A DNA stretch of 64,000 bases, from assembly GCA_963825795.1 (NCBI GenBank), contig CAWGVD010000046.1:91329-155328 (forward strand). Reading direction: 5' to 3'. Positions 33,727 through 56,382 of the stretch are shown here, piece after piece. Every line of letters starts with the position of its first letter. Position 1 is the stretch's first letter. Position numbers and translations under genes: made by a program. The stretch is from an uncultured Actinomycetes bacterium. Lineage in GTDB: Bacteria; Actinomycetota; Thermoleophilia; Gaiellales; Gaiellaceae. Under the pieces are notes generated by a model. The model was not told the origin of the DNA. It searched no databases and was given only the letters and a program-made list of their open reading frames with translations.

Positions 33727-34929
33727 ATGAGCGAGATGTTCGCCGGCCGCTATCGGCTGGAGCAGCAGCTGGGAGCGGGGTCGATGGCCGAGGTCTGGCT
33801 CGCGATCGACACGCAACTCGGTCGGCCGGTCGCGCTCAAGCTCCTGCGCACCGACGCCGATCCGGTGCGCTTCGAGCGCGAGGCGCGGGCCGTCGCCTCG
33901 CTGTCGCACCCGAACATCTGCCGCCTCTACGACTACGGAAGCGAGGGCGGGCGGCCGTTCATGGTCTTCGAGCACCTGGCCGGCGGCACGCTCGAGGAGC
34001 GCCTCGGCGAGGGCGGGCCGCTGCCGGACTCCGAGACCGCGACGATCGCGGCCGAGGTCGCGGCCGGGCTCGCGCACGCGCACGAGCACGGGCTCATCCA
34101 CCGCGACCTGAAGCCGGCGAACATCCTCTTCGACGAGGAGGGTCGCGCCAAGGTCTCTGACTTCGGCATTGCCCGGATGTCCGGCGTGGACACGCTGACG
34201 GAGGCCGGCACGCTGATCGGAACGGCCGCGTACATGTCGCCGGAGCAGGCTTCGGGAGAGGGCGCCACCCCCGCGAGCGACGTCTATTCGTTCGGCGTCA
34301 TCCTGTTCCGGCTGCTCACGGGGCGGCTCCCGTTCGAGACGCCGAGCCCCGTCGACCTGCTGCGCCGCCAGCTGTACGAGGCGCCGCCCGCGATCCACTC
34401 GCTTCGGCCGGACGCGCCGATGACGCTGGCTGCGGTGGCCGAGGAGTCGTTGGCCAAGTCGCCCGCGGATCGGCCCCCGGACGGGCGTGCGCTCGTCGGC
34501 CTGCTCTCGGGAGCGATCGTCCCAGTCGCCGGGGACGCGGCCACGCAGGTCATCCCGCCGCCTCGGTCGGGCCGACGACCCTGGCTGCTTGCCGCACTGA
34601 TCGGTTTGCCGCTGCTCTTCCTGGCCGGGATCGCGATCGCCCTCGTTGCAAACGACAACGGCTCGAACACGCCTGCGCCGGCCTCGACGCCCGGCACCAC
34701 GATCGTGACGACGACGGCTCCGCCGCCTCCAGCCGCCGCCGCCTCCACCGCCACCCCCGCCTCCGCCGCCGCCGCCTCCGCCTCCACCGCCGCCGCCACC
34801 GCCCCCTCCGCTGCCACCACCTCCACCGCCGCCTCCCGCCTCCGCTGCCACCGCCGCCGCCTCCGCCTCCACTGCCACCGCCGCCTCCCCGCACAGCCAC
34901 CTCCACAGCCGCCCCCTCCACCGCCGTAG
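33727..34929 (+). CDS. Ser/Thr protein kinase with TM helix and Ala/Thr/Pro-rich low-complexity tail
   Basis: ATP-binding Gly loop, VALK, HRDLKPANIL, DFG and SPE motifs. TM helix LLAALIGLPLLFLAGIAIALV. The tail is encoded by GCC/ACC-rich tandem repeats (34720..34929). Confidence 0.85.
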   Translation: MSEMFAGRYRLEQQLGAGSMAEVWLAIDTQLGRPVALKLLRTDADPVRFEREARAVASLSHPNICRLYDYGSEGGRPFMVFEHLAGGTLEERLGEGGPLPDSETATIAAEVAAGLAHAHEHGLIHRDLKPANILFDEEGRAKVSDFGIARMSGVDTLTEAGTLIGTAAYMSPEQASGEGATPASDVYSFGVILFRLLTGRLPFETPSPVDLLRRQLYEAPPAIHSLRPDAPMTLAAVAEESLAKSPADRPPDGRALVGLLSGAIVPVAGDAATQVIPPPRSGRRPWLLAALIGLPLLFLAGIAIALVANDNGSNTPAPASTPGTTIVTTTAPPPPAAAASTATPASAAAASASTAAATAPSAATTSTAASRLRCHRRRLRLHCHRRLPAQPPPQPPPPPP

Positions 34930-34952
34930 TTCACGCGGCTAGGCTCCGAGCC

Positions 34953-39540: not shown

Positions 39541-39550
39541 GCGTCGGCGG

Positions 39551-41724
39551 CTATGGCTGCGGAGGCGGCGGTGGCGGCTCGGCCGGTGGCGGCTCGGCCG
39601 GAGGCGGCGGGTGCTGGACGGGCGGCGGCGGAGTCGCGTGCGTGGGCGGAGGACCGGCCGGAGGCTGTGGGCTGGTCGGCGGCGGCTGCGCGGCCGGAGG
39701 CTGGTAGTAGTACGAGCTCGGCGGCGGCGGGCCTCCGTAGCTGCCCGGCGTCCACGAGTGCCAGATCGGCTCGGAGAGCGCCGTCGGGAACTCGCGCACC
39801 GGAGTCGGCCCGATCGCCTCGTCCATGAAGAGCTTCCAGATCGTGGCCGGGAACGTCCCGCCCGCGACCGCGATCCCGTGCACGTTCTCCATCGGAATCT
39901 CCGCCTGCGGATAGCCGACCCAGACCGCGGCCGTCAGCGTCGGCGTGATCCCGTCGAACCAGGCGTCAGCGTGATTCTCGGTCGTCCCCGTCTTCCCGCC
40001 TGCGGGCCGGCCGATGTTCGCGCCGACGCCGGTCCCGGCCTGGATGTTCTCCTCGAGGATCTTCGTCACCTCGGCCGCGACCCAGTCCGCGATCACGCGA
40101 TGGCGTTTCGGCCTGCCCCAGTTCCTGTCTTCGCCCCCACCGGCGAAGGCGACCTTGGTGATCGCCATCGGCTCGGAGTAGATGCCCCCGGCGGCGAGCG
40201 TGGCGTACGCCGAGGCCATGTCGAGCGGTGAGACGCCGATCGAGCCGAGGCCGAGCGACGGCACGTACGCCCCTTCCCTCGTCTTCAGCGACGAACGGAT
40301 GCCCATCCTGTTCGCCATCGCGGCCACCTTCTCCGCACCGAGATCGAGCGTCAGGCGCGCGTAGACGGTGTTGTCCGAGAGCAGCGTCGCGTGCGTGATC
40401 GACGTCGAGCCGACGTACGTGTGCGAGTAGGTCGAGACGTCCCAGGGCTGCACTGTTCGGGTCCGGCTGGTAGTGGAGCGGCGCAGACACGTACGTCGTC
40501 GTGTCGGGGTCGATGCCCTGGGAGACGGCCTGGGTCAGGACGAAGGTCTTGAACGTCGAGCCGGCCTGGCGGCGTGCCTGTGCAGCGAGGTTGAACTGGT
40601 TTCCGGCCCGTCCGGGAGTGACCGCCGTCATCGTCTTGATCGCCCCCGTGCGCGGGTCGATGGCCACGAGCGCCGAAGCCGGGTCGGTGTCGTAGTAGAG
40701 CGTGTCCTTGATCGCCTTCGTCGCTGCGCGCTGCATGCGCGGGTCGATCGTCGTGTACACCTTGAGCCCACCCGAGCGGACCGTCGCCACGCCGTACTTC
40801 TTGATCAGCTCGTCGCGGACGTAGCTGAAGAAGTAGGGCTCGCGGATCCGGCTGTAGATCCTCCCCGGGCGCAGGTGGAGGTCGGTGACCTTGATGCCGT
40901 CCTGGTAGTTGCCGTAGCTGATCTGGCCGTTGTCGTACAGCGCCTTCAGCACGTCGTTCCGCCGCTTGATGGCGCGCTCGGGGTCCTTGAACGGGTCGTA
41001 GATCGACGGCGCCTGCGGCAGCCCCGCGAGGAGAGCCGACTGCAGGAGCGAGAGCTTGCTCGCGCGGCGCGAGAAGTACGTCTGCGCGGCGGCCTCGACG
41101 CCGTAGGCGTGGTTGCCGTAGTAGACCGGTGTTCATGTAGTTGGCGAGGATCCAGTTCTTCCCGTGCTTGTCGCTGAGCTTGATGGCGAGGCAGGCCTCG
41201 ACGAGCTTGCGGTGCAGCGTGCGCTCCTGGTGGCGGATGTAGAGGTTGCGGACGAGCTGCTGCGTGATCGTGGAACCGCCCTCGACCGTGCGGCCGGCAC
41301 GGACGTCGTTGTAGGCCGCGCGCGCGATGCCCTGGAAGTCGATGCCGCCGTGCTGGTAGAAGCGCCTGTCCTCGATTGCGACCGTCGCCTTGCCCATCCA
41401 GGGGCTCATCTCGCTCAGGCTCACGGGCTGACGGTTCTTCTCGGCGGGAATCGAGCCGAGCAGGGTGTCGTCGGATGCGTAGACGAACGAGTTGGAGCCG
41501 ATCGTCGCCGGCCGGAGGTCCTGCAGATTGCAGTCGGCCTGGATCGAGCGCGCGCCGCTGAAGCCGACCGTGGCGAACACGGCGAGGATCCCGAGGAGCA
41601 CGACCAGAAGGGCGCCGAGCTTGCGGCGTCGTCGTGCTCGCCGGCCGTTCCGGCGCTGGCGCCGATGGTTCGGCACGTACGGCCGCGCGCGGCCGGGTCG
41701 ACCGTTGCCGGGCGGCGGGCTCAC
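39551..41724 (-). CDS. ponA: class A penicillin-binding protein (GT51 transglycosylase + transpeptidase), at least 2 frameshifts, Pro-rich C-terminal tail
   Basis: GT51 motifs (EDRRFYQHGGID, GGSTITQQL). Transpeptidase STFK, SxN-like and KTGT motifs lie in two further frames. Confidence 0.75.
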
Positions 41725-47699: not shown

Positions 47700-48656
47700 A
47701 AGATCTGTCCGCGCCTCGGCGTCCTGCGAGATCGCCTCCAGCGACTCGAGATCCTCGAGCCACTCGACGAACATCAGCGGGCCGCCGCTTCCAGGGCCTC
47801 GGCGAGCTCCTCGAGCTGAACCTCGCTCTCGACCGGGATCTCGAGCCCGCGCTGCACTGACCCGGACGCGGAACCCCGTCAGGCGCTCGGCTGCGATCTT
47901 GACGCGCTCCGCGAGCTGCGGATCGGCAGGTGGCCGCCGCCGGCGCTTCGTCGCAGCGCCCGACCAGCGCGCCTCGCGCTCCGCAGCGCGCACGGAGAGC
48001 CCCTGGCGAACGATCTTGCGCGCGAGCCGGCGCCTGCCCTCGTTGTCCGGCACCGCGAGCACCGCGCGCGCATGACCCTCGGTCAGCTCGCCGCGCTCGA
48101 CCATCGCGAGGATGTCGTCCGAGAGCTCGAGCAGGCGCAGACGGTTCGAGACGGCCGGCTTCGACGCGCCGACGCGCTCGGCGATGTCGCCCAGCGAGAG
48201 GTCGAACTCGTCGACGAGCACGGCGAAGGCGCGCGCCTCTTCGATCGGCGTCAGCTCCTCACGCGCGACGTTCTCGACGAGCCCGAGCAGGAGCGCGTCG
48301 CGATCGGCCGCGTCCCGGACGAGCGCGGGCAGCGTCTCCAGGTTCGCCTCGCGCGCCGCCCGCCAGCGCCGCTCGCCCGCGACGAGCTCGTAGCCCCCGG
48401 CGGCGCGTGGGCGCAGGACGACCGGCTGGATGATCCCCTGCGCCCGGATCGACTCCGCGAGCGCGAGAGTCGTCTCGTGCTCGAAGCGCTTCCGCGGCTG
48501 CTTCGGGTTCGGATGGATCTGGTCGATCGGGACGTGCGCCAGCTCGGCGCCGCCGGCGCCGCCGATCAGGACCTCGAGCCCGCGGCCCAGTCCTCGCCTT
48601 GCTGCGCTCTCGGTTGAACTCGGATTGAGTCGACCGGTCATTTCAGACGGAGGCAC
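47700..48656 (-). CDS. parB: chromosome partitioning protein ParB
   Basis: GLGRGL N-terminal box, the ParB-box/HTH region, and a C-terminal dimerisation region (LMFVEWLEDLESLEAI). The ORF continues open to 47379. An internal ATG at 48641 sits right after the parA stop. Confidence 0.8.
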
Positions 48657-48702
48657 GGGCTAAGCCCGTCCCTCCTGACACCGGCGCCGCAAGCGGCGCC
48701 TC
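48632..48702. repeat. 72-nt two-hairpin intergenic repeat, copy A (parA|parB junction)
   Basis: GACCGGTCATTTC...GGAGGcACGGGCtaaGCCCGTcCCTCC...GGCGCCGcaagCGGCGCC. About 90% identical to copy B at 55250..55320, with compensatory stem substitutions. Confidence 0.7.
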
Positions 48703-49467
48703 AGAGGAACGGTCGACAAGCTCCATCGCCACCTTCCAGTAGGCCTCCGCGCCGGCCGAGCGCGGGTCGTAGGTGATCACGGGCTCGCCGTGGCTCGGCG
48801 CCTCTGCGATCCGGACGGAGCGAGGGACGCGCGCGCGAAAGAGCAGCGGGCCGAAGTGGCGCTCGAGCTCCGCGGCCACGTCGGCGGACAGCTTCGTCCG
48901 CGCGTCGACCATCGTCAGGATCACTCCGGCGAGCGCGAGGCTGGGATTGAGCCGCGTCCGGATCGCGCCGAGCGAGGTGACGAGCTGCGAGAGGCCCTCG
49001 AGCGCGTAGTACTCGGCCTGCACCGGGACGAGCACGCGACTCGCGGCCGCGAGCGCGTTGACGGTGAGCGGGCCGAGCGAGGGCGGGCAGTCGACGAACA
49101 CGAATGCGTGCGTCTCCGTCGCCGGGGCGAGCGTCTCCGCGAGGAAGCGCTCGCCGTCGCCGCGGCGCGCAAGGTCCGCGGCCGTTCCGGCGAGGTCCGG
49201 CTTGGACGGGATCAGGTCGAGGTTCTCGAAGCGCGTCGGCCTCGCGAGCTCGCTCGGCGGGGCGCCGTCGAGCAGGTCGCAGCTGGACGTCCCGTTCGCC
49301 TGCTCGCCGAGCCCCGACGTCGCGTTCGCCTGCGGGTCGAGATCGACGAGCAGCACCCGTTCGCCCGCCTTCGCGAGGCAGGCTGCGAGGTTGACGGCAG
49401 TGGTCGTCTTGCCAACCCCGCCCTTCTGGTTGGCGACGGCGTAGATCCGCCCGGGCACGCAGCCCAT
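48643..49467 (-). CDS. parA: chromosome partitioning ATPase ParA/Soj
   Basis: KGGVGKTT deviant Walker A. The last ~20 aa (EAPLAAPVSGGTGLARASV) and the stop are encoded by repeat copy A. Confidence 0.85.
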   Translation of the reverse strand: MGCVPGRIYAVANQKGGVGKTTTAVNLAACLAKAGERVLLVDLDPQANATSGLGEQANGTSSCDLLDGAPPSELARPTRFENLDLIPSKPDLAGTAADLARRGDGERFLAETLAPATETHAFVFVDCPPSLGPLTVNALAAASRVLVPVQAEYYALEGLSQLVTSLGAIRTRLNPSLALAGVILTMVDARTKLSADVAAELERHFGPLLFRARVPRSVRIAEAPSHGEPVITYDPRSAGAEAYWKVAMELVDRSSEAPLAAPVSGGTGLARASV

Positions 49468-52278: not shown

Positions 52279-52596
52279 GGTGAGAGGTGAGAGAAAAAGA
52301 GGAACGAGCGCCCTTTTCGCACGGGCGTCGGGCCAGTATAGACAAGCCCTCTGTACCCGCGTTATCCACAGCTCAGCAGGTGTTTACAGCTTTGAAAAAT
52401 CGCTGCGCGGAGGCGGCTAGGGGACGCTAAGCACGGCGGCCGGATTGTGTTGTCCACACCTGTGGACATCCATGTGGAGCAAAAGAAATCTCCTGCAAAT
52501 CTCGATATATTTGCCCACGGCGACCCTCCTTGTGACCCCTGGAGGACGCTGTTATGCTCGCCACTCCTTCCCCCTGAGCGAGGAGTTCACCCGGCG
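52279..52596. promoter_or_regulatory. oriC part 1 / dnaA promoter region with DnaA boxes and an AT-rich stretch
   Basis: TTATCCACA (52362..52370), TTGTCCACA (52443..52451), inverted TGTGGACA (52454..52461), CCACATGG-type boxes, and AT-rich 52471..52520 (AAAAGAAATCTCCTGCAAATCTCGATATATTTG). Lowest GC in the window. Confidence 0.7.
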
Positions 52597-54097: not shown

Positions 54098-55231
54098 ATG
54101 ACTGAGATAGAAACTGCTGTTGGATCGGCCGTGAAGGTCACCTGCCCCAAGGACGAGCTCACCCGCGCGCTGGCGGTTGTCGGACGAGCGGTCTCGACGC
54201 GTGCGAGCGTTCAGGTGCTCGGCGGGGTTCTCCTGCGCGGCGGCGAGGGATCGCTCGAGTTGGCCGCCACCGATATGGAGCTCTCGCTGCGCCTGTCGGT
54301 CGAGGCGCAGGTCGAAGGTCAGGGTGCGGTCGTCGCGCCCGGGCGGCTTCTGGTCGACCTCGCGCGACTGCTGCCTGACAACGAAGTGGTGCTCGAGCAT
54401 CGCACGGAGCAAGGTGTGCTCGAGATCACGTGCGGGCCGGCCGCATACAAGCTGAACACGTACAGCGCCGAGGACTTCCCGAAGCTGCCCGAAGTCGAGG
54501 GCGCTCAGACCTTCACCGTCGACAACGCCGCCTTCCTGGACACGGTTTCGAAGGTCGCCCGCGCCGCGTCGCGTGACGAGTCGCGCCCGGTGCTGACCGG
54601 GGTGATGGTCCACTTCGAGGGCTCGAACCTCGTCATGGCCGCGACCGACTCGTACCGGATGTCGGTCAAGACGACCGAGCTCGAGGAGGCCGCAGGCGCC
54701 GAGCTCGAGGCGATCGTCCCCGCGCGCGCGCTGACCGAGCTCTCGCGGATCGCACAGGACGCCGCCGAGCTCCGGATCGGCGTCCAGGAGAACCACGTCG
54801 TGTTCGGCGCCGGAGACGTCTGGCTGACGACGCGGCGGATCGACGGTCAGTTCCCGAACCACAAGCAGCTGATTCCCGAGACCTTCGAGCACGAGATCGC
54901 GCTGCCCCGAGAGGAGTTCCTCGAGGTCGTGCGGCGTGTGTCCGTGATGGCCCAGCGGAACTCGCCGCTCCGGCTGCGGTTCGCCGAGGGTGAGGTGACG
55001 ATCTCGGCGCAGACGCAGGACGTGGGCGAGGCGAAGGAGTCGCTGCCGGTGCCGTTCTCGGGAGAGCCGCTCGAGATCGGGTTCAACCCGGAGTTCCTGC
55101 GGGACGGGCTCGAGTCGGTGGACACGGACGAGATCGCGCTGCGGCTGATCAGCTCGCTCCGCCCGGGCCTCCTGCGCTCCGAGGCCGAGAACTTCTCGTA
55201 CCTGATCATGCCGATCCGATTGGCGGGCTAG
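54098..55231 (+). CDS. dnaN: DNA polymerase III beta sliding clamp
   Basis: 377 aa, intact three-domain clamp. Confidence 0.9.
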   Translation: MTEIETAVGSAVKVTCPKDELTRALAVVGRAVSTRASVQVLGGVLLRGGEGSLELAATDMELSLRLSVEAQVEGQGAVVAPGRLLVDLARLLPDNEVVLEHRTEQGVLEITCGPAAYKLNTYSAEDFPKLPEVEGAQTFTVDNAAFLDTVSKVARAASRDESRPVLTGVMVHFEGSNLVMAATDSYRMSVKTTELEEAAGAELEAIVPARALTELSRIAQDAAELRIGVQENHVVFGAGDVWLTTRRIDGQFPNHKQLIPETFEHEIALPREEFLEVVRRVSVMAQRNSPLRLRFAEGEVTISAQTQDVGEAKESLPVPFSGEPLEIGFNPEFLRDGLESVDTDEIALRLISSLRPGLLRSEAENFSYLIMPIRLAG

Positions 55232-55249
55232 GTTGTCCGTCAGCGGGCC

Positions 55250-55320
55250 GACCGGTCATTTCCGACGGACGCACGGGCGGAGCCCGTCCGTCCTGAGATC
55301 GGCGCCGCAAGCGGCGCCTC
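55250..55320. repeat. 72-nt two-hairpin intergenic repeat, copy B (dnaN|recF junction)
   Basis: GGACGcACGGGCggaGCCCGTcCGTCC hairpin and GGCGCCGcaagCGGCGCC hairpin. See copy A. Confidence 0.7.
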
Positions 55321-55326
55321 GGCCGC

Positions 55327-56382
55327 CTGATCGTCCGGGAAGTCACGCTCCGCGACTACCGCTCGTACGCGTCGCTCGAGCTGGAGCTGTCCTCTGGGCT
55401 CTTGCTGGCCGTCGGCCGGAACGGCGCGGGCAAGACGAATCTGCTCGAGGCGATCCACGTCGGGACGCAGGGCTTCTCGCCGCGAAGCCGGAACGATGCC
55501 CAGCTCGTTCGCTTCGGCGCGGAGGCCGCGAGAATCGAGCTGGCCGGCTCTCGGGCCGGCTCTCAGCTGGAGATCGAGATCACGCTCCGCCCGGGCGATG
55601 CGAGGAAGGCTCGATTGAACGGCGCAACCCTGCGCGCGGCCGAACAGCTTCGCTCCGAGGTCTCGACGCTCGTGTTCACGCCCGACCGCCTCGTCGTCGT
55701 CAAGGGAGGGCCGGCTGCCCGGCGGGCGTACTTCGACCGCGCTCTGGGGCGCCTGTTTCCCGCCCGGGCCGGCGTGCCGGCCGAGTACGGCGCGGCCGTG
55801 GCGCAACGGAACGCCGCGCTCCGTCGGGTTGCGATCGGCGCCTCGTCGCGAGACGCCGTCTCGCCGTGGACCGCTCGGGTCGCCGATCTCGGCTCGGCTC
55901 TCGTGGAGGCTCGCCGGGAAACGATCGCGCTCCTCGCCCCGCTGTTCGCCGAGTGCGCCCTCGAGCTCGGCCTCCCAGGCGGTGAGCTGCGCTACGACGC
56001 CGACCCGCCGACGGCCGAAGCGCTCGAGGCCCGTCTCGACGACGACCTCGACCGCGGAACGACCGGCCTGGGGCCGCACCTGCACGACGTCGAGATCCGC
56101 GCCGACGACCGTGACCTGCGCCGCTTCGGCTCGCAGGGCGAGCAGCGCCTCGCCGTGCTGTCGCTGATCCTCGCCGAAGCCGCGCTCCTGGCCGAGCGGG
56201 GCCCGGCGCCGCCGCTTCTCCTGCTCGACGACGTCTTGTCCGAGCTCGACGAAGGCAGGCGGGCTGCGCTCGCCGAGCGGCTGGCCGGGCCGGGGCAGAC
56301 GCTGATCACGGCCACTGCCGCGTCAGCCCTGCCTGCGGAGCCGGCGCAGCTCGTCGAGGTGACGCCCGGAGCCGCGAGATGA
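55327..56382 (+). CDS. recF: DNA replication and repair protein RecF
   Basis: GRNGAGKTNLLEAI Walker A. The N-terminus LIVREVTLRDYRSY lies upstream of the track start. No ATG/GTG/TTG between the in-frame stop (55294) and this region. Confidence 0.8.
   Translation: MIVREVTLRDYRSYASLELELSSGLLLAVGRNGAGKTNLLEAIHVGTQGFSPRSRNDAQLVRFGAEAARIELAGSRAGSQLEIEITLRPGDARKARLNGATLRAAEQLRSEVSTLVFTPDRLVVVKGGPAARRAYFDRALGRLFPARAGVPAEYGAAVAQRNAALRRVAIGASSRDAVSPWTARVADLGSALVEARRETIALLAPLFAECALELGLPGGELRYDADPPTAEALEARLDDDLDRGTTGLGPHLHDVEIRADDRDLRRFGSQGEQRLAVLSLILAEAALLAERGPAPPLLLLDDVLSELDEGRRAALAERLAGPGQTLITATAASALPAEPAQLVEVTPGAAR

What the first reader, a model, noticed from the sequence alone, without database searches (positions are those of the whole stretch)
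55250..55320. Second copy of the two-hairpin repeat occupies the dnaN|recF junction; recF has no canonical start
This copy has the same orientation as copy A but sits in a plus-strand operon, so relative to the mRNA it is inverted. That fits a DNA-level REP/MITE-like element or a palindromic structural element. Its second hairpin (GGCGCCGcaagCGGCGCC) lies immediately upstream of the conserved RecF N-terminus (LIVREVTLRDYRSY). The in-frame stop at 55294 lies inside the element. No ATG/GTG/TTG exists between that stop and the conserved residues. So recF initiation here is either non-canonical (CTG/ATC), structurally regulated, or disrupted.
Basis: partly seen in the sequence, partly recalled or inferred. 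Interest (0 to 1): 0.6.

Follow-up and report, generated by a model that had tools for sequence, protein, structure and literature searches.

The report
Repeat insertion at CTG-started recF junction
A roughly 90-base two-hairpin repeat, one of a previously undescribed dispersed family in soil Gaiellaceae, sits between dnaN and recF, but recF's missing ATG/GTG/TTG start is older than the insertion: across the whole bacterial family recF begins at a conserved CTG next to the dnaN stop codon.

Summary
Positions 55249-55320 are a 90%-identical, same-orientation copy of 48631-48702, and no ATG/GTG/TTG precedes the conserved RecF N-terminus.

The interpretation needs re-ordering.

1. The repeat belongs to a dispersed, strongly co-varying two-hairpin family. 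It gave at least 119 hits in Gaiellaceae MAGs, lies in both orientations, matches no Rfam family and has no linked transposase. It is present or absent at this junction among strains with at least 98% identical RecF.

2. The missing start is not caused by the repeat. In 77 distinct dnaN|recF junctions (63-100% RecF identity) codon 1 is CTG in 76 and GTG in 1. None has a Shine-Dalgarno-like motif. In 64 the dnaN stop lies within 30 nt, and in 27 of those it overlaps as CTGA. I infer that recF starts at CUG by reinitiation after dnaN.

3. Where the repeat is inserted, six lineages carry a 30-36-codon relay ORF. It starts 0-4 nt after the dnaN stop and ends on the TGA overlapping the CTG, the logic described for MIRUs.

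4. The window is one G short at 55321 compared with three close assemblies, and it has other private indels. This is probably an assembly error. It breaks the relay ORF and creates the in-frame TGA at 55294.

The parts
54098..55231 (+). dnaN (sliding clamp), stop TAG at 55229-55231
   Evidence: Pfam DNA_pol3_beta domains 1-3; ORF list
55233..55235 (+). TTG lying 1 nt after the dnaN stop. In L207, L205 and L124 it starts the 32-codon relay ORF. In the window as given, the same ORF misses its stop and runs on to 55985.
55235..55322 (-). Copy B of the two-hairpin repeat (full covariance-model match). The strand that shows selection for pairing is the minus strand, which is antisense to the dnaN-recF mRNA.
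   Evidence: 93.5 bits, E 5e-29; strand asymmetry
55249..55320 (.). 72-nt core shared with copy A at 90% identity
55250..55257 (.). Conserved 8-bp palindrome GACCGGTC at one end of the core
   Evidence: at least 90% conserved columns in alignment A1
55267..55293 (.). Hairpin 1 (12 bp, with one mismatch); the stem co-varies across the family
55294..55296 (+). TGA inside the conserved TCCTGA motif. It is in the recF frame only in the window as given.
   Evidence: frame differs in L124, L205 and L207
55301..55318 (.). Hairpin 2 (7 bp; the loop is CAAG on the plus strand and CUUG on the folding strand)
55321..55322 (.). GG run that is GGG in L207, L205 and L124; probable 1-nt deletion or assembly error in the window
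55323..55330 (+). Relic of the ancestral dnaN end plus stop (CCGCCTGA). The TGA at 55328-55330 overlaps the recF CTG and is the stop of the relay ORF in relatives.
   Evidence: empty-site alignment
55327..56382 (+). recF, proposed start CTG at 55327-55329 (351 codons)
   Evidence: Pfam SMC_N from residue 3; solved RecF 5Z67 residue 5 aligns to residue 3; CTG in 76 of 77 junctions
55402..55404 (+). Internal TTG (codon 26) that gene callers use as the start (326-aa calls); not the real start
48617..48704 (-). Copy A of the repeat at parA|parB, sense to the parAB mRNA. The ParA ORF reads through it to TGA 48645-48643, and the parB ATG 48641-48639 lies in its tail.
   Evidence: 99.6 bits

Best explanation
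Two independent things meet at 55232-55330.

(1) The recF start (inferred from comparison). In Gaiellaceae recF has no ATG/GTG/TTG start. It begins at a conserved CUG with no Shine-Dalgarno sequence, placed on or next to the dnaN stop; the ancestral form is GGCTGATC, a -4 'CTGA' overlap. The likely mechanism is that ribosomes finishing dnaN reinitiate at the weak CUG. That would give a small, fixed fraction of DnaN output, which suits a protein that is needed at about 50 copies per cell and is toxic when over-made in E. coli.

(2) The repeat (shown). A member of a dispersed, about 87-100-nt, two-hairpin repeat family, non-autonomous as far as these data show, is inserted exactly in that junction. 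The insertion duplicated the junction. The left copy kept the dnaN end (RLAG*, now with a TAG stop) and the right copy kept CTGATC.

(3) The relay ORF (inferred). The insertion moved the dnaN stop 95-96 nt away from the CUG. In most lineages that carry it, the gap is bridged by a short relay ORF that starts 0-4 nt after the dnaN stop, runs through both hairpins and stops at the TGA overlapping the CUG. This would re-create the coupling, as proposed for mycobacterial MIRUs.

(4) The window itself. It lacks one G (55321) that L207, L205 and L124 have. With that G restored, the window has the same relay ORF (TTG 55233 to TGA). As given, the relay ORF overshoots, and a TGA (55294) falls in the recF frame.
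For: CTG as the start:
- 77 distinct junctions: CTG 76, GTG 1.
- Invariant Leu codons 8, 17 and 27 use mainly CTC with CTT/CTG/CTA/TTG mixed in, so the CTG invariance is at nucleotide level.
- Codon 2 varies (ATC 71, GTC 4, ATA 2, ATT 1, CTC 1).
- Codons 3-30 show synonymous change with invariant R12, S13, Y14, L17, G24 and G30, so the region is translated.
- An in-frame stop lies 1-3 codons before the CTG in 19 of 79 junctions, including TAG-CTG directly.
- The first canonical codon downstream is at scattered positions (codons 19-43).
- Pfam SMC_N matches from residue 3, and solved RecF 5Z67 residue 5 aligns to residue 3.
- PGAP annotates MIVE... (start at the CTG) in several MAGs.

Coupling:
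- Stop-to-start distance is -4 in 27 junctions, 0 in 5, 1-30 nt in 32, and over 90 nt in 13.
- 0 of 77 have GGAG/GAGG/AGGA at -20..-4.
- The only GTG start (L149) has a 140-nt spacer that is not the element.

The element family:
- At least 119 genome stretches, all Gaiellaceae/Gaiellales MAGs, with 5-7 copies in some MAGs.
- 97.7% of cells are paired; 8 of 12 pairs in hairpin 1 show double changes; 96 double-change cells against 12.7 in shuffles, 0 of 500 shuffles reaching the observed value.
- No Rfam match.
- Neighbouring genes are unrelated housekeeping genes.
- Co-directional contexts split 37 to 27 between the two orientations.

Insertion:
- Empty sites (L125, L204, L206, L208-L210, L001 and others) read ATCCGCCTGGCCGGCTGATCGTCC.
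- Filled sites keep a relic of the dnaN end to the right of the element (L143 CCATCCGCCTGGCCGGCTGATC; L012 TGGCCGGCTGATC).

Relay ORF:
- Present in L207/L205/L124, L002, L060, L137, L143 and L148.
- 2-4.5% of shuffles give one.
- Two different frames cross the core, so translation rather than the peptide is what is kept.

Literature:
- RecF at about 50 molecules per cell; a 14-fold excess is toxic; RecF binds DnaN (PMC10287930).
- CUG initiates at 0.02-3% of AUG in E. coli (10.1101/063800).
- NTGA coupling, loss of coupling with distance, and the MIRU relay (PMC12548453).
Against: - There are no expression data: CUG initiation, reinitiation and relay translation are all inferred.
- In the window as given the relay ORF is out of frame.
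- L012 has no relay ORF. L155/L157 have only a loose one, starting 23 nt after the stop. L003 has none but has an in-frame ATG 25 codons upstream.
- Family-wide, chains of coupled ORFs across the element are only modestly enriched: 42% and 59% observed against 25% and 39% in shuffles.
- The strand under selection for pairing is antisense to the dnaN-recF mRNA, which the relay idea does not explain.
- The filled allele's dnaN end differs at 5 of 15 positions from the empty allele in otherwise near-identical strains. A simple recent insertion with target duplication therefore cannot be the whole history.
- Junction lineages are not phylogenetically independent.
Confidence: 0.7

Rival explanations
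1. recF really starts at the internal TTG 55402 (the 326-aa product called by Prodigal-type gene finders), and the upstream 25 codons are untranslated.
For: More than 100 close homologues in the protein collection are called at 326-337 aa.
Against: Codons 1-25 are conserved as protein with synonymous variation. They align to the N-terminal strand of the SMC_N/RecF fold. Codon 26 is a canonical start in only 40 of 79 junctions, and the first canonical codon is scattered from 19 to 67.
Confidence: 0.05
2. A sequencing or assembly error hides a normal GTG/ATG start in this window.
For: The window does carry private 1-nt indels (56605, 47706-8, 47851, 55321).
Against: 76 of 77 independent junctions from Illumina and long-read assemblies have CTG and no canonical start. 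L207 has the same allele with CTG.
Confidence: 0.02
3. The start is ATC 55330 (as PGAP chose in L002) rather than CTG.
For: ATC is a table-11 initiator, and PGAP annotated it in GCA_036395295.
Against: Codon 2 is GTC or CTC in 5 of 79 junctions, while codon 1 is CTG or GTG in all. In most junctions ATC is explained by the A being needed for the overlapping TGA. Other PGAP records start at the CTG position (MIVE...).
Confidence: 0.08
4. The insertion has disabled recF expression in this strain: coupling is lost, the relay ORF is broken, and recF is on the way to becoming a pseudogene.
For: As given, the stop-to-start distance is 95 nt with two stable hairpins (-57 kcal/mol). The relay ORF overshoots to 55985, and coupling falls off with distance (PMC12548453).
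Against: The recF ORF is intact and 97-100% identical to relatives. The same allele with an intact relay ORF is present in L207, L205 and L124. The window has other indels in essential genes (dciA, parB) that look like errors.
Confidence: 0.12
5. The two-hairpin element is a dedicated cis-regulatory RNA (attenuator or riboswitch-like) for recF or parB.
For: Strong covariation and a closed multi-branch fold; it is positioned right at start codons in both window copies.
Against: There are more than 119 copies next to unrelated genes, in both orientations. It is absent from the same junctions in strains with at least 98% identity. At recF the selected strand is antisense to the mRNA. No Rfam family matches.
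Confidence: 0.05
6. DnaN-RecF fusion by stop-codon readthrough or frameshifting replaces independent initiation.
For: In the window the dnaN frame stays open after the TAG for 32 codons up to the TGA overlapping the CTG. In L124, L205 and L207 dnaN and recF are in the same frame (gap 96).
Against: Frame relations differ between junction classes (gaps of -4, 0, 1, 3, 7, 10, 11, 13, 14, 21-23 nt), so no single recoding event fits.
Confidence: 0.02

Closest known systems
MIRUs (mycobacterial interspersed repetitive units)
   Same: Short (about 50-100 bp) repeats in Actinomycetota that sit in junctions between operon genes and are sometimes in tandem arrays. They carry or are spanned by a small ORF whose ends abut the neighbours' stop and start (-4 spacing), so that insertion does not break translational coupling (review PMC12548453). 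Here, relay ORFs are seen at dnaN|recF in six lineages and tandem arrays have a period of about 100-105 nt.
   Different: The host family is different. The element lies in both orientations relative to the genes (37 to 27). It has two strongly co-varying hairpins with one-strand G.U tolerance. The relay ORF is not a fixed reading frame of the element, since two frames are used. Sequence similarity to MIRU was not tested.
REP/BIME and REPIN elements (RAYT-mobilised), ERIC, Correia/NEMIS-type MITEs
   Same: GC-rich, structured, extragenic repeats that often lie directly after stop codons, are non-autonomous, and vary in presence between strains.
   Different: No GTAG-type REP head, no terminal inverted repeats, two unlike hairpins plus a conserved GACCGGTC palindrome, and low copy number (at least 5-7 per MAG found with a strict pattern). 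A subset has flanking direct repeats of about 20-35 nt instead of short fixed duplications. No RAYT or transposase was found nearby.
NTGA stop/start overlaps and termination-reinitiation coupling
   Same: A -4 overlap with no Shine-Dalgarno sequence, the commonest coupled arrangement in prokaryotes (PMC12548453).
   Different: N is C. The downstream start is the near-cognate CUG, conserved across a bacterial family, and it is kept even where the overlap has drifted to 0-23 nt.
Conserved non-canonical starts such as infC AUU and pcnB AUU in E. coli (from my own knowledge, not checked here)
   Same: A weak initiator codon is conserved in orthologues of one gene, holding expression low.
   Different: The codon differs (CUG), the gene differs (recF), and the mechanism proposed here is coupling to dnaN rather than IF3 autoregulation.

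Membership tests
MIRU-like intergenic repeat with relay ORF | Short repeat units at junctions between co-directional genes, sometimes in tandem arrays | tested here: met
   64 of 119 copies lie between co-directional genes. Tandem arrays occur in L005, L032, L039, L063, L101 and L103. Both window copies sit at operon junctions.
MIRU-like intergenic repeat with relay ORF | A small ORF across the unit whose start abuts the upstream stop and whose stop overlaps the downstream start | tested here: met
   Met at dnaN|recF in L207/L205/L124, L002, L060, L137, L143 and L148, against a 2-4.5% chance expectation. Family-wide the support is only suggestive. Not met in the window as given, which is 1 nt short.
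MIRU-like intergenic repeat with relay ORF | One fixed orientation relative to the flanking genes | tested here: not met
   37 against 27 in co-directional contexts; the two window copies are opposite.
MIRU-like intergenic repeat with relay ORF | Sequence homology to the mycobacterial MIRU consensus | not tested
   No MIRU reference sequence was available in the tools.
REP / REPIN (RAYT-associated) | 20-40-nt imperfect palindrome with a conserved GTAG-type 5' head, usually hundreds of copies, often in inverted pairs | tested here: not met
   The consensus has two unlike hairpins and no such head. Arrays are direct, not inverted. Only 5-7 hits per MAG, which is a lower bound.
REP / REPIN (RAYT-associated) | A cognate RAYT (Y1 transposase) gene flanked by the repeats | tested here: inconclusive
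   No transposase-like family appears among recurrent neighbours in 119 loci of 8 kb. Whole genomes could not be scanned.
MITE (DDE-transposon derivative) | Terminal inverted repeats | tested here: not met
   The ends CTGAGGCRCCGC... and ...GACCGGTCGA are not inverted copies of each other.
MITE (DDE-transposon derivative) | Short target-site duplication of fixed length | tested here: inconclusive
   Locus-specific direct repeats of about 20-35 nt in at least 10 of 100 copies, against 1 expected. At dnaN|recF the junction is duplicated but the two copies have diverged.
Rfam RNA families | Score at or above a family's gathering threshold | tested here: not met
   Only two tRNAs in the window. 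The best hit over 55150-55420 has E = 2.9.
Translationally coupled gene pair (NTGA, reinitiation) | Stop and start overlapping or within a few nt, with no Shine-Dalgarno sequence | tested here: met
   Met in relatives: -4 in 27, 0 in 5 and 1-30 nt in 32 of 77 junctions; SD-like motif in 0 of 77. In the window itself the distance is 95 nt.
Translationally coupled gene pair (NTGA, reinitiation) | Downstream translation depends on upstream translation | not testable with these tools
   Needs reporter or ribosome-profiling experiments.
Gene with a conserved near-cognate start codon | The same non-ATG/GTG/TTG codon at the N-terminus across orthologues, with upstream stops excluding other starts | tested here: met
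   CTG in 76 of 77 junctions; an in-frame stop 1-3 codons upstream in 19 of 79; synonymous variation elsewhere.

The most novel reading that the evidence does not exclude
The two-hairpin element may be a new kind of small mobile element that targets stop/start junctions. Three features fit this. Its own TGA serves as the upstream gene's stop in 24 of 49 cases. It appears to move through a single-stranded (RNA or ssDNA) intermediate of one defined strand. It duplicates about 20-30 nt of target, so that overlapping gene ends are both preserved and a relay ORF can keep translational coupling. On this reading it would be a genomic parasite adapted to the tightest spaces in operons. Together with a family-wide CUG-initiated recF, it would also give a natural test bed for reinitiation at near-cognate codons.
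Probability: 0.2. Interest if true: 0.7.

Novelty: new variant of a known kind. Interest (0 to 1): 0.55.

Why it matters
Three consequences follow.

1. Annotation. Most public gene calls for Gaiellaceae recF are truncated by about 25 residues because gene finders do not accept CTG. The rule 'CTG at or next to the dnaN stop' fixes them.

2. Translation biology. This is a near-cognate CUG start conserved over a whole bacterial family, with no Shine-Dalgarno sequence, sitting on the stop codon of the protein that RecF binds (DnaN). It is a clean natural case for testing reinitiation at weak codons and fixed-ratio expression of a dosage-toxic protein.

3. Genome evolution. An undescribed structured repeat family in abundant but barely cultured soil Actinomycetota inserts into overlapping gene junctions and is tolerated, apparently through junction duplication and relay ORFs. 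That would extend the MIRU principle beyond mycobacteria.

Tried and rejected
- Rfam, at gathering and at E-value thresholds: no family matches the element.
- Sigma-70 promoter and intrinsic terminator scans of both copies: nothing.
- A conserved micro-ORF starting at the ATG in the element tail: rejected, because that ATG is often ACG, CTG or CCG.
- A linked transposase or integrase: the recurrent neighbours are ABC, SDR, MFS, response-regulator and similar genes.
- General use of CTGA overlaps in these genomes: apart from recF only about 5 candidates, against 31 ATGA, 45 GTGA and 9 TTGA, so CTG use is specific to recF.
- The idea that the dnaN-frame ORF after the TAG in the window is conserved: rejected, since it is not open in L002.
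- A single simple history for the junction: neither 'one ancient insertion with losses' nor 'recent insertion with a perfect target duplication' fits all alleles.
- Literature: no paper on Gaiellales repeats and none on a recF CTG start.
- My crude codon-score gene finder missed parA, so I replaced it with local frame scoring.

Full report
**1. What is in the window**

The region is the origin neighbourhood of a 70% GC actinobacterial genome.
- On the minus strand lie parA and parB (ParB_N/HTH_ParB).
- On the plus strand lie dnaA 52447-53943, dnaN 54098-55231, a RecF-homologous frame ending at 56382, a DciA gene and gyrB.
- The cumulative GC skew has its minimum at 52-54 kb, and DnaA boxes lie at 52362, 52450 and 52461.

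The repeat is real. 48631-48702 and 55249-55320 are 72 nt long, 90% identical and on the same strand. A covariance model of the family finds only these two copies in the 64 kb. Both hairpins exist. One difference between the two copies is a compensatory G:C to C:G change in hairpin 1. Copy A lies in the minus-strand parA|parB junction and copy B in the plus-strand dnaN|recF junction, so they are inverted relative to their mRNAs. They also lie on opposite sides of the origin.

In the recF frame there is a TGA at 55294-55296, and no ATG/GTG/TTG occurs before TTG 55402.

**2. The repeat is a member of a dispersed family**

Every hit was in a Gaiellaceae, Gaiellales, Thermoleophilia or 'Actinomycetota' MAG. 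Some MAGs had 5-7 hits, and some hits were tandem arrays with a period of about 100-105 nt.

The conserved unit runs from about 13 nt left of the 72-nt core to 2 nt right of it.

I aligned 80 copies (A1) and counted pairs.
- 97.7% of cells are paired.
- Eight of the twelve pairs in hairpin 1 show changes on both sides.
- There are 96 double-change cells against 12.7 in shuffles (0 of 500 shuffles reach the observed value).
- Slid registers drop to 30-56% pairing.

Pairing is selected on one strand only. On the window's plus strand the variable pair of hairpin 2 is A-T 62, G-C 30, A.C 33 and G.T 0. Hairpin 1 has 63 A.C/C.A pairs against 2 G.T. On the reverse strand these mismatches become G.U wobbles, and there the hairpin 2 loop reads CUUG. 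The folding strand is therefore the window's minus strand. That strand is sense to parAB at copy A and antisense to dnaN-recF at copy B.

Further properties of the family:
- No Rfam family matches.
- Neither copy contains a promoter-like or terminator-like site.
- Between co-directional genes the element occurs in both orientations (37 and 27). It also occurs between convergent genes (10) and divergent genes (6).
- Recurrent neighbours are ordinary housekeeping families, with no transposase or integrase.
- When a gene lies upstream on the folding strand, it ends with the element's own TGA (5'-CTGAGG) in 24 of 49 cases, and somewhere inside the element in about 34 of 49.
- A subset of copies has locus-specific direct repeats of about 20-35 nt flanking the core: 10 of 100 exceed the 99th percentile of mismatched-flank controls.

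However, the family meets neither the REP definition nor the MITE definition (no GTAG head, no terminal inverted repeats).

**3. The missing start codon is older than the insertion**

Protein searches showed that almost all RecF homologues with 63-100% identity are called at 326-337 aa. In other words, gene finders everywhere fall back on an internal start. I collected dnaN|recF junctions from genomes and metagenomes.

Codon usage in the junctions:
- Of 77 distinct junctions that include the dnaN end, codon 1 of the conserved N-terminus is CTG in 76 and GTG in 1.
- Invariant leucines at codons 8, 17 and 27 use mostly CTC with a mixture of other codons.
- Codon 2 varies: ATC 71, GTC 4, ATA 2, ATT 1 and CTC 1.
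- Codons 3-30 show synonymous variation under strict amino-acid conservation.

Evidence that translation begins at the CTG and not elsewhere:
- In-frame stops lie 1-3 codons upstream of the CTG in 19 of 79 junctions, including TAG-CTG directly.
- The first canonical codon downstream is scattered between codons 19 and 67.
- The Pfam SMC_N match starts at residue 3, and residue 5 of the solved RecF 5Z67 aligns with residue 3.
- PGAP has already annotated the CTG (MIVE...) or the ATC as the start in some MAG records.

Distances from the dnaN stop to the CTG:

| Stop-to-start distance | Junctions |
|---|---|
| -4 (GGCTGATC, a 'CTGA' overlap) | 27 |
| 0 | 5 |
| 1-30 nt | 32 |
| over 90 nt | 13 |

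No junction has GGAG, GAGG or AGGA at -20..-4. The one GTG start (L149) has a 140-nt spacer that is not the element. CTGA overlaps are not a general habit of these genomes.

My inference is that recF initiates at CUG by reinitiation of ribosomes that terminate on dnaN. This fits three published results.
- CUG works at 0.02-3% of AUG in E. coli (10.1101/063800).
- E. coli RecF is present at about 50 molecules per cell, a roughly 14-fold excess is toxic, and RecF binds DnaN (PMC10287930).
- NTGA overlaps are the commonest coupled arrangement (PMC12548453).

**4. What the insertion did**

Empty sites read ATGCCGATCCGCCTGGCCGGCTGATCGTCC. They include strains whose RecF is 98-99% identical to the window's (L125, L204, L206, L208-L210).

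Filled sites are the window, L207, L205, L124, L002, L060, L137, L003/L004, L012, L143, L148, L155/L157 and a partial copy in L136. All have the element in the same orientation. To the right of the element they keep a relic of the dnaN end. The relic is longest in L143 (CCATCCGCCTGGCCGGCTGATC). To the left a functional dnaN end is kept.

So the junction was duplicated, which let both overlapping gene ends survive. The history is not simple. The filled allele's dnaN end (CGATTGGCGGGCTAG) is shared with distant lineages, yet it differs at 5 of 15 positions from the empty allele in otherwise near-identical strains. This suggests allele exchange or repeated loss, and I could not resolve which.

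**5. The relay ORF**

In filled junctions a short ORF starts 0-4 nt after the dnaN stop and ends exactly at the TGA that overlaps the CTG.

| Lineage | Start codon and offset after dnaN stop | Length (codons) |
|---|---|---|
| L207, L205, L124 | TTG, +1 | 32 |
| L002 | TTG, +1 (a different frame through the core) | 32 |
| L060, L137 | ATG, +0 | 36 |
| L143 | ATG, +3 | 33 |
| L148 | GTG, +4 | 30 |

Shuffled spacers give such an ORF in 2-4.5% of trials. The peptides differ between lineages because two reading frames are used, so what is conserved is translation across the element and not a product.

The exceptions are as follows. L003 has a second element nested inside the first and uses an in-frame ATG 25 codons upstream instead. 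L012 has no relay ORF. L155/L157 have a loose one, starting 23 nt after the stop.

This is the arrangement described for mycobacterial MIRUs (PMC12548453). A family-wide test for chains of coupled ORFs across the element was only modestly positive, at 42% and 59% observed against 25% and 39% in shuffles.

**6. The window itself**

Compared with four or five independent assemblies of close strains, the window has private 1-nt indels.
- One splits dciA (56605).
- One splits the 82-aa gene downstream of parB (47706-8).
- One alters the parB 3' end (47851).
- One G is missing at 55321: the window reads CTCGGCCGC, while L207, L205 and L124 read CTCGGGCCG.

With that G restored, the window has the same relay ORF (TTG 55233 to the TGA overlapping the CTG), and the TGA at 55294 is no longer in the recF frame. 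As given, the relay ORF overshoots to 55985. I consider an assembly error more likely than a real mutation (about 60:40), but this needs the reads.

**7. Copy A**

At parA|parB the element is sense to the mRNA. The ParA ORF reads through it for 24 extra codons to TGA 48645-48643, and the parB ATG 48641-48639 lies 1 nt further on, in the element's tail. Relatives without the element have parA and parB overlapping by 17 nt. Coupling is again preserved, this time by a different route. This copy is present only in the window, in L052 and, in decayed form, in L001.

**8. Verdict**

It is a dispersed DNA-level repeat and recF has a non-canonical start. The start is CTG, it is ancestral, and it is unrelated to the element. 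recF is not disrupted by design.
- The element is a new variant of known kinds of structured intergenic repeat and is closest in logic to MIRUs.
- The family-wide CUG start of recF coupled to dnaN is, as far as the searchable literature shows, undescribed, although PGAP annotations imply it.
- The mechanistic steps (reinitiation at CUG, relay translation, and a single-strand intermediate of the element) are inferences.

Noticed in passing
window 48617-48704 (minus strand): Copy A reshapes both neighbouring genes. ParA gains a 24-codon tail read through the element, ending at TGA 48645-48643. parB starts at ATG 48641-48639 (or the in-frame GTG 48656) inside the element. Close strains without the element have parA and parB overlapping by 17 nt.
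   Followed up: partly
window 56605; 47706-47708; 47851; 50039; 50070; 55321: The window has private single-base indels relative to 4-5 independent assemblies of 94-99% identical strains. They split dciA and the 82-aa gene downstream of parB, and extend parB to a 420-aa ORF. This looks like assembly error.
   Followed up: yes
L003 8520-8675, L009, L109: A composite version of the element with extra hairpins (GGCCACGCCGGCAAAGCCGGCATGGCC and GGCATCGCAAGCGATGCC) nested in hairpin 1. In L003 it supplies an in-frame ATG 25 codons upstream of the recF CTG.
   Followed up: partly
L005, L032, L039, L063, L101, L103, L113, L119: Tandem arrays of the element with periods of about 100-155 nt. Several lie at contig ends, so assemblies appear to break there.
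   Followed up: partly
family-wide: In 24 of 49 cases with a gene upstream on the folding strand, that gene's stop codon is the TGA of the element's 5'-CTGAGG end.
   Followed up: partly
L149 about 940-1090: This is the only junction with a canonical GTG at recF codon 1. It also has a 140-nt spacer that is not the element, which is consistent with a stronger start being needed once coupling is lost.
   Followed up: no
L163, L174, L175, L178, L180-L182, L185, L186, L190, L192, L195, L203 (junctions with 21-23-nt spacers): The dnaN stop codon sits in the loop of a small conserved hairpin, CCGGC-TGAAA-GCCGG, just upstream of the recF CTG.
   Followed up: no
window 34711-34940 and 39545-39637: Low-complexity GCC/GGC triplet-rich tracts, seen as overlapping direct repeats with 9-25-nt spacing.
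   Followed up: no
L003 12884-16645: gyrA in this relative carries an intein (Intein_splicing plus LAGLIDADG domains, 1253 aa).
   Followed up: no
protein P0081: A RecF whose first 30 or so residues (MVVRALECRGFRNL...) come from a different RecF lineage, while the rest is identical to P0048. It is probably a chimeric contig or a recombinant.
   Followed up: no
L001 5077-5165, 5528-5615, 5646-5712: Three element copies or fragments cluster around rnpA and rpmH in this relative, next to the origin region. L001 also lacks a called dnaA between 5775 and 7542.
   Followed up: no
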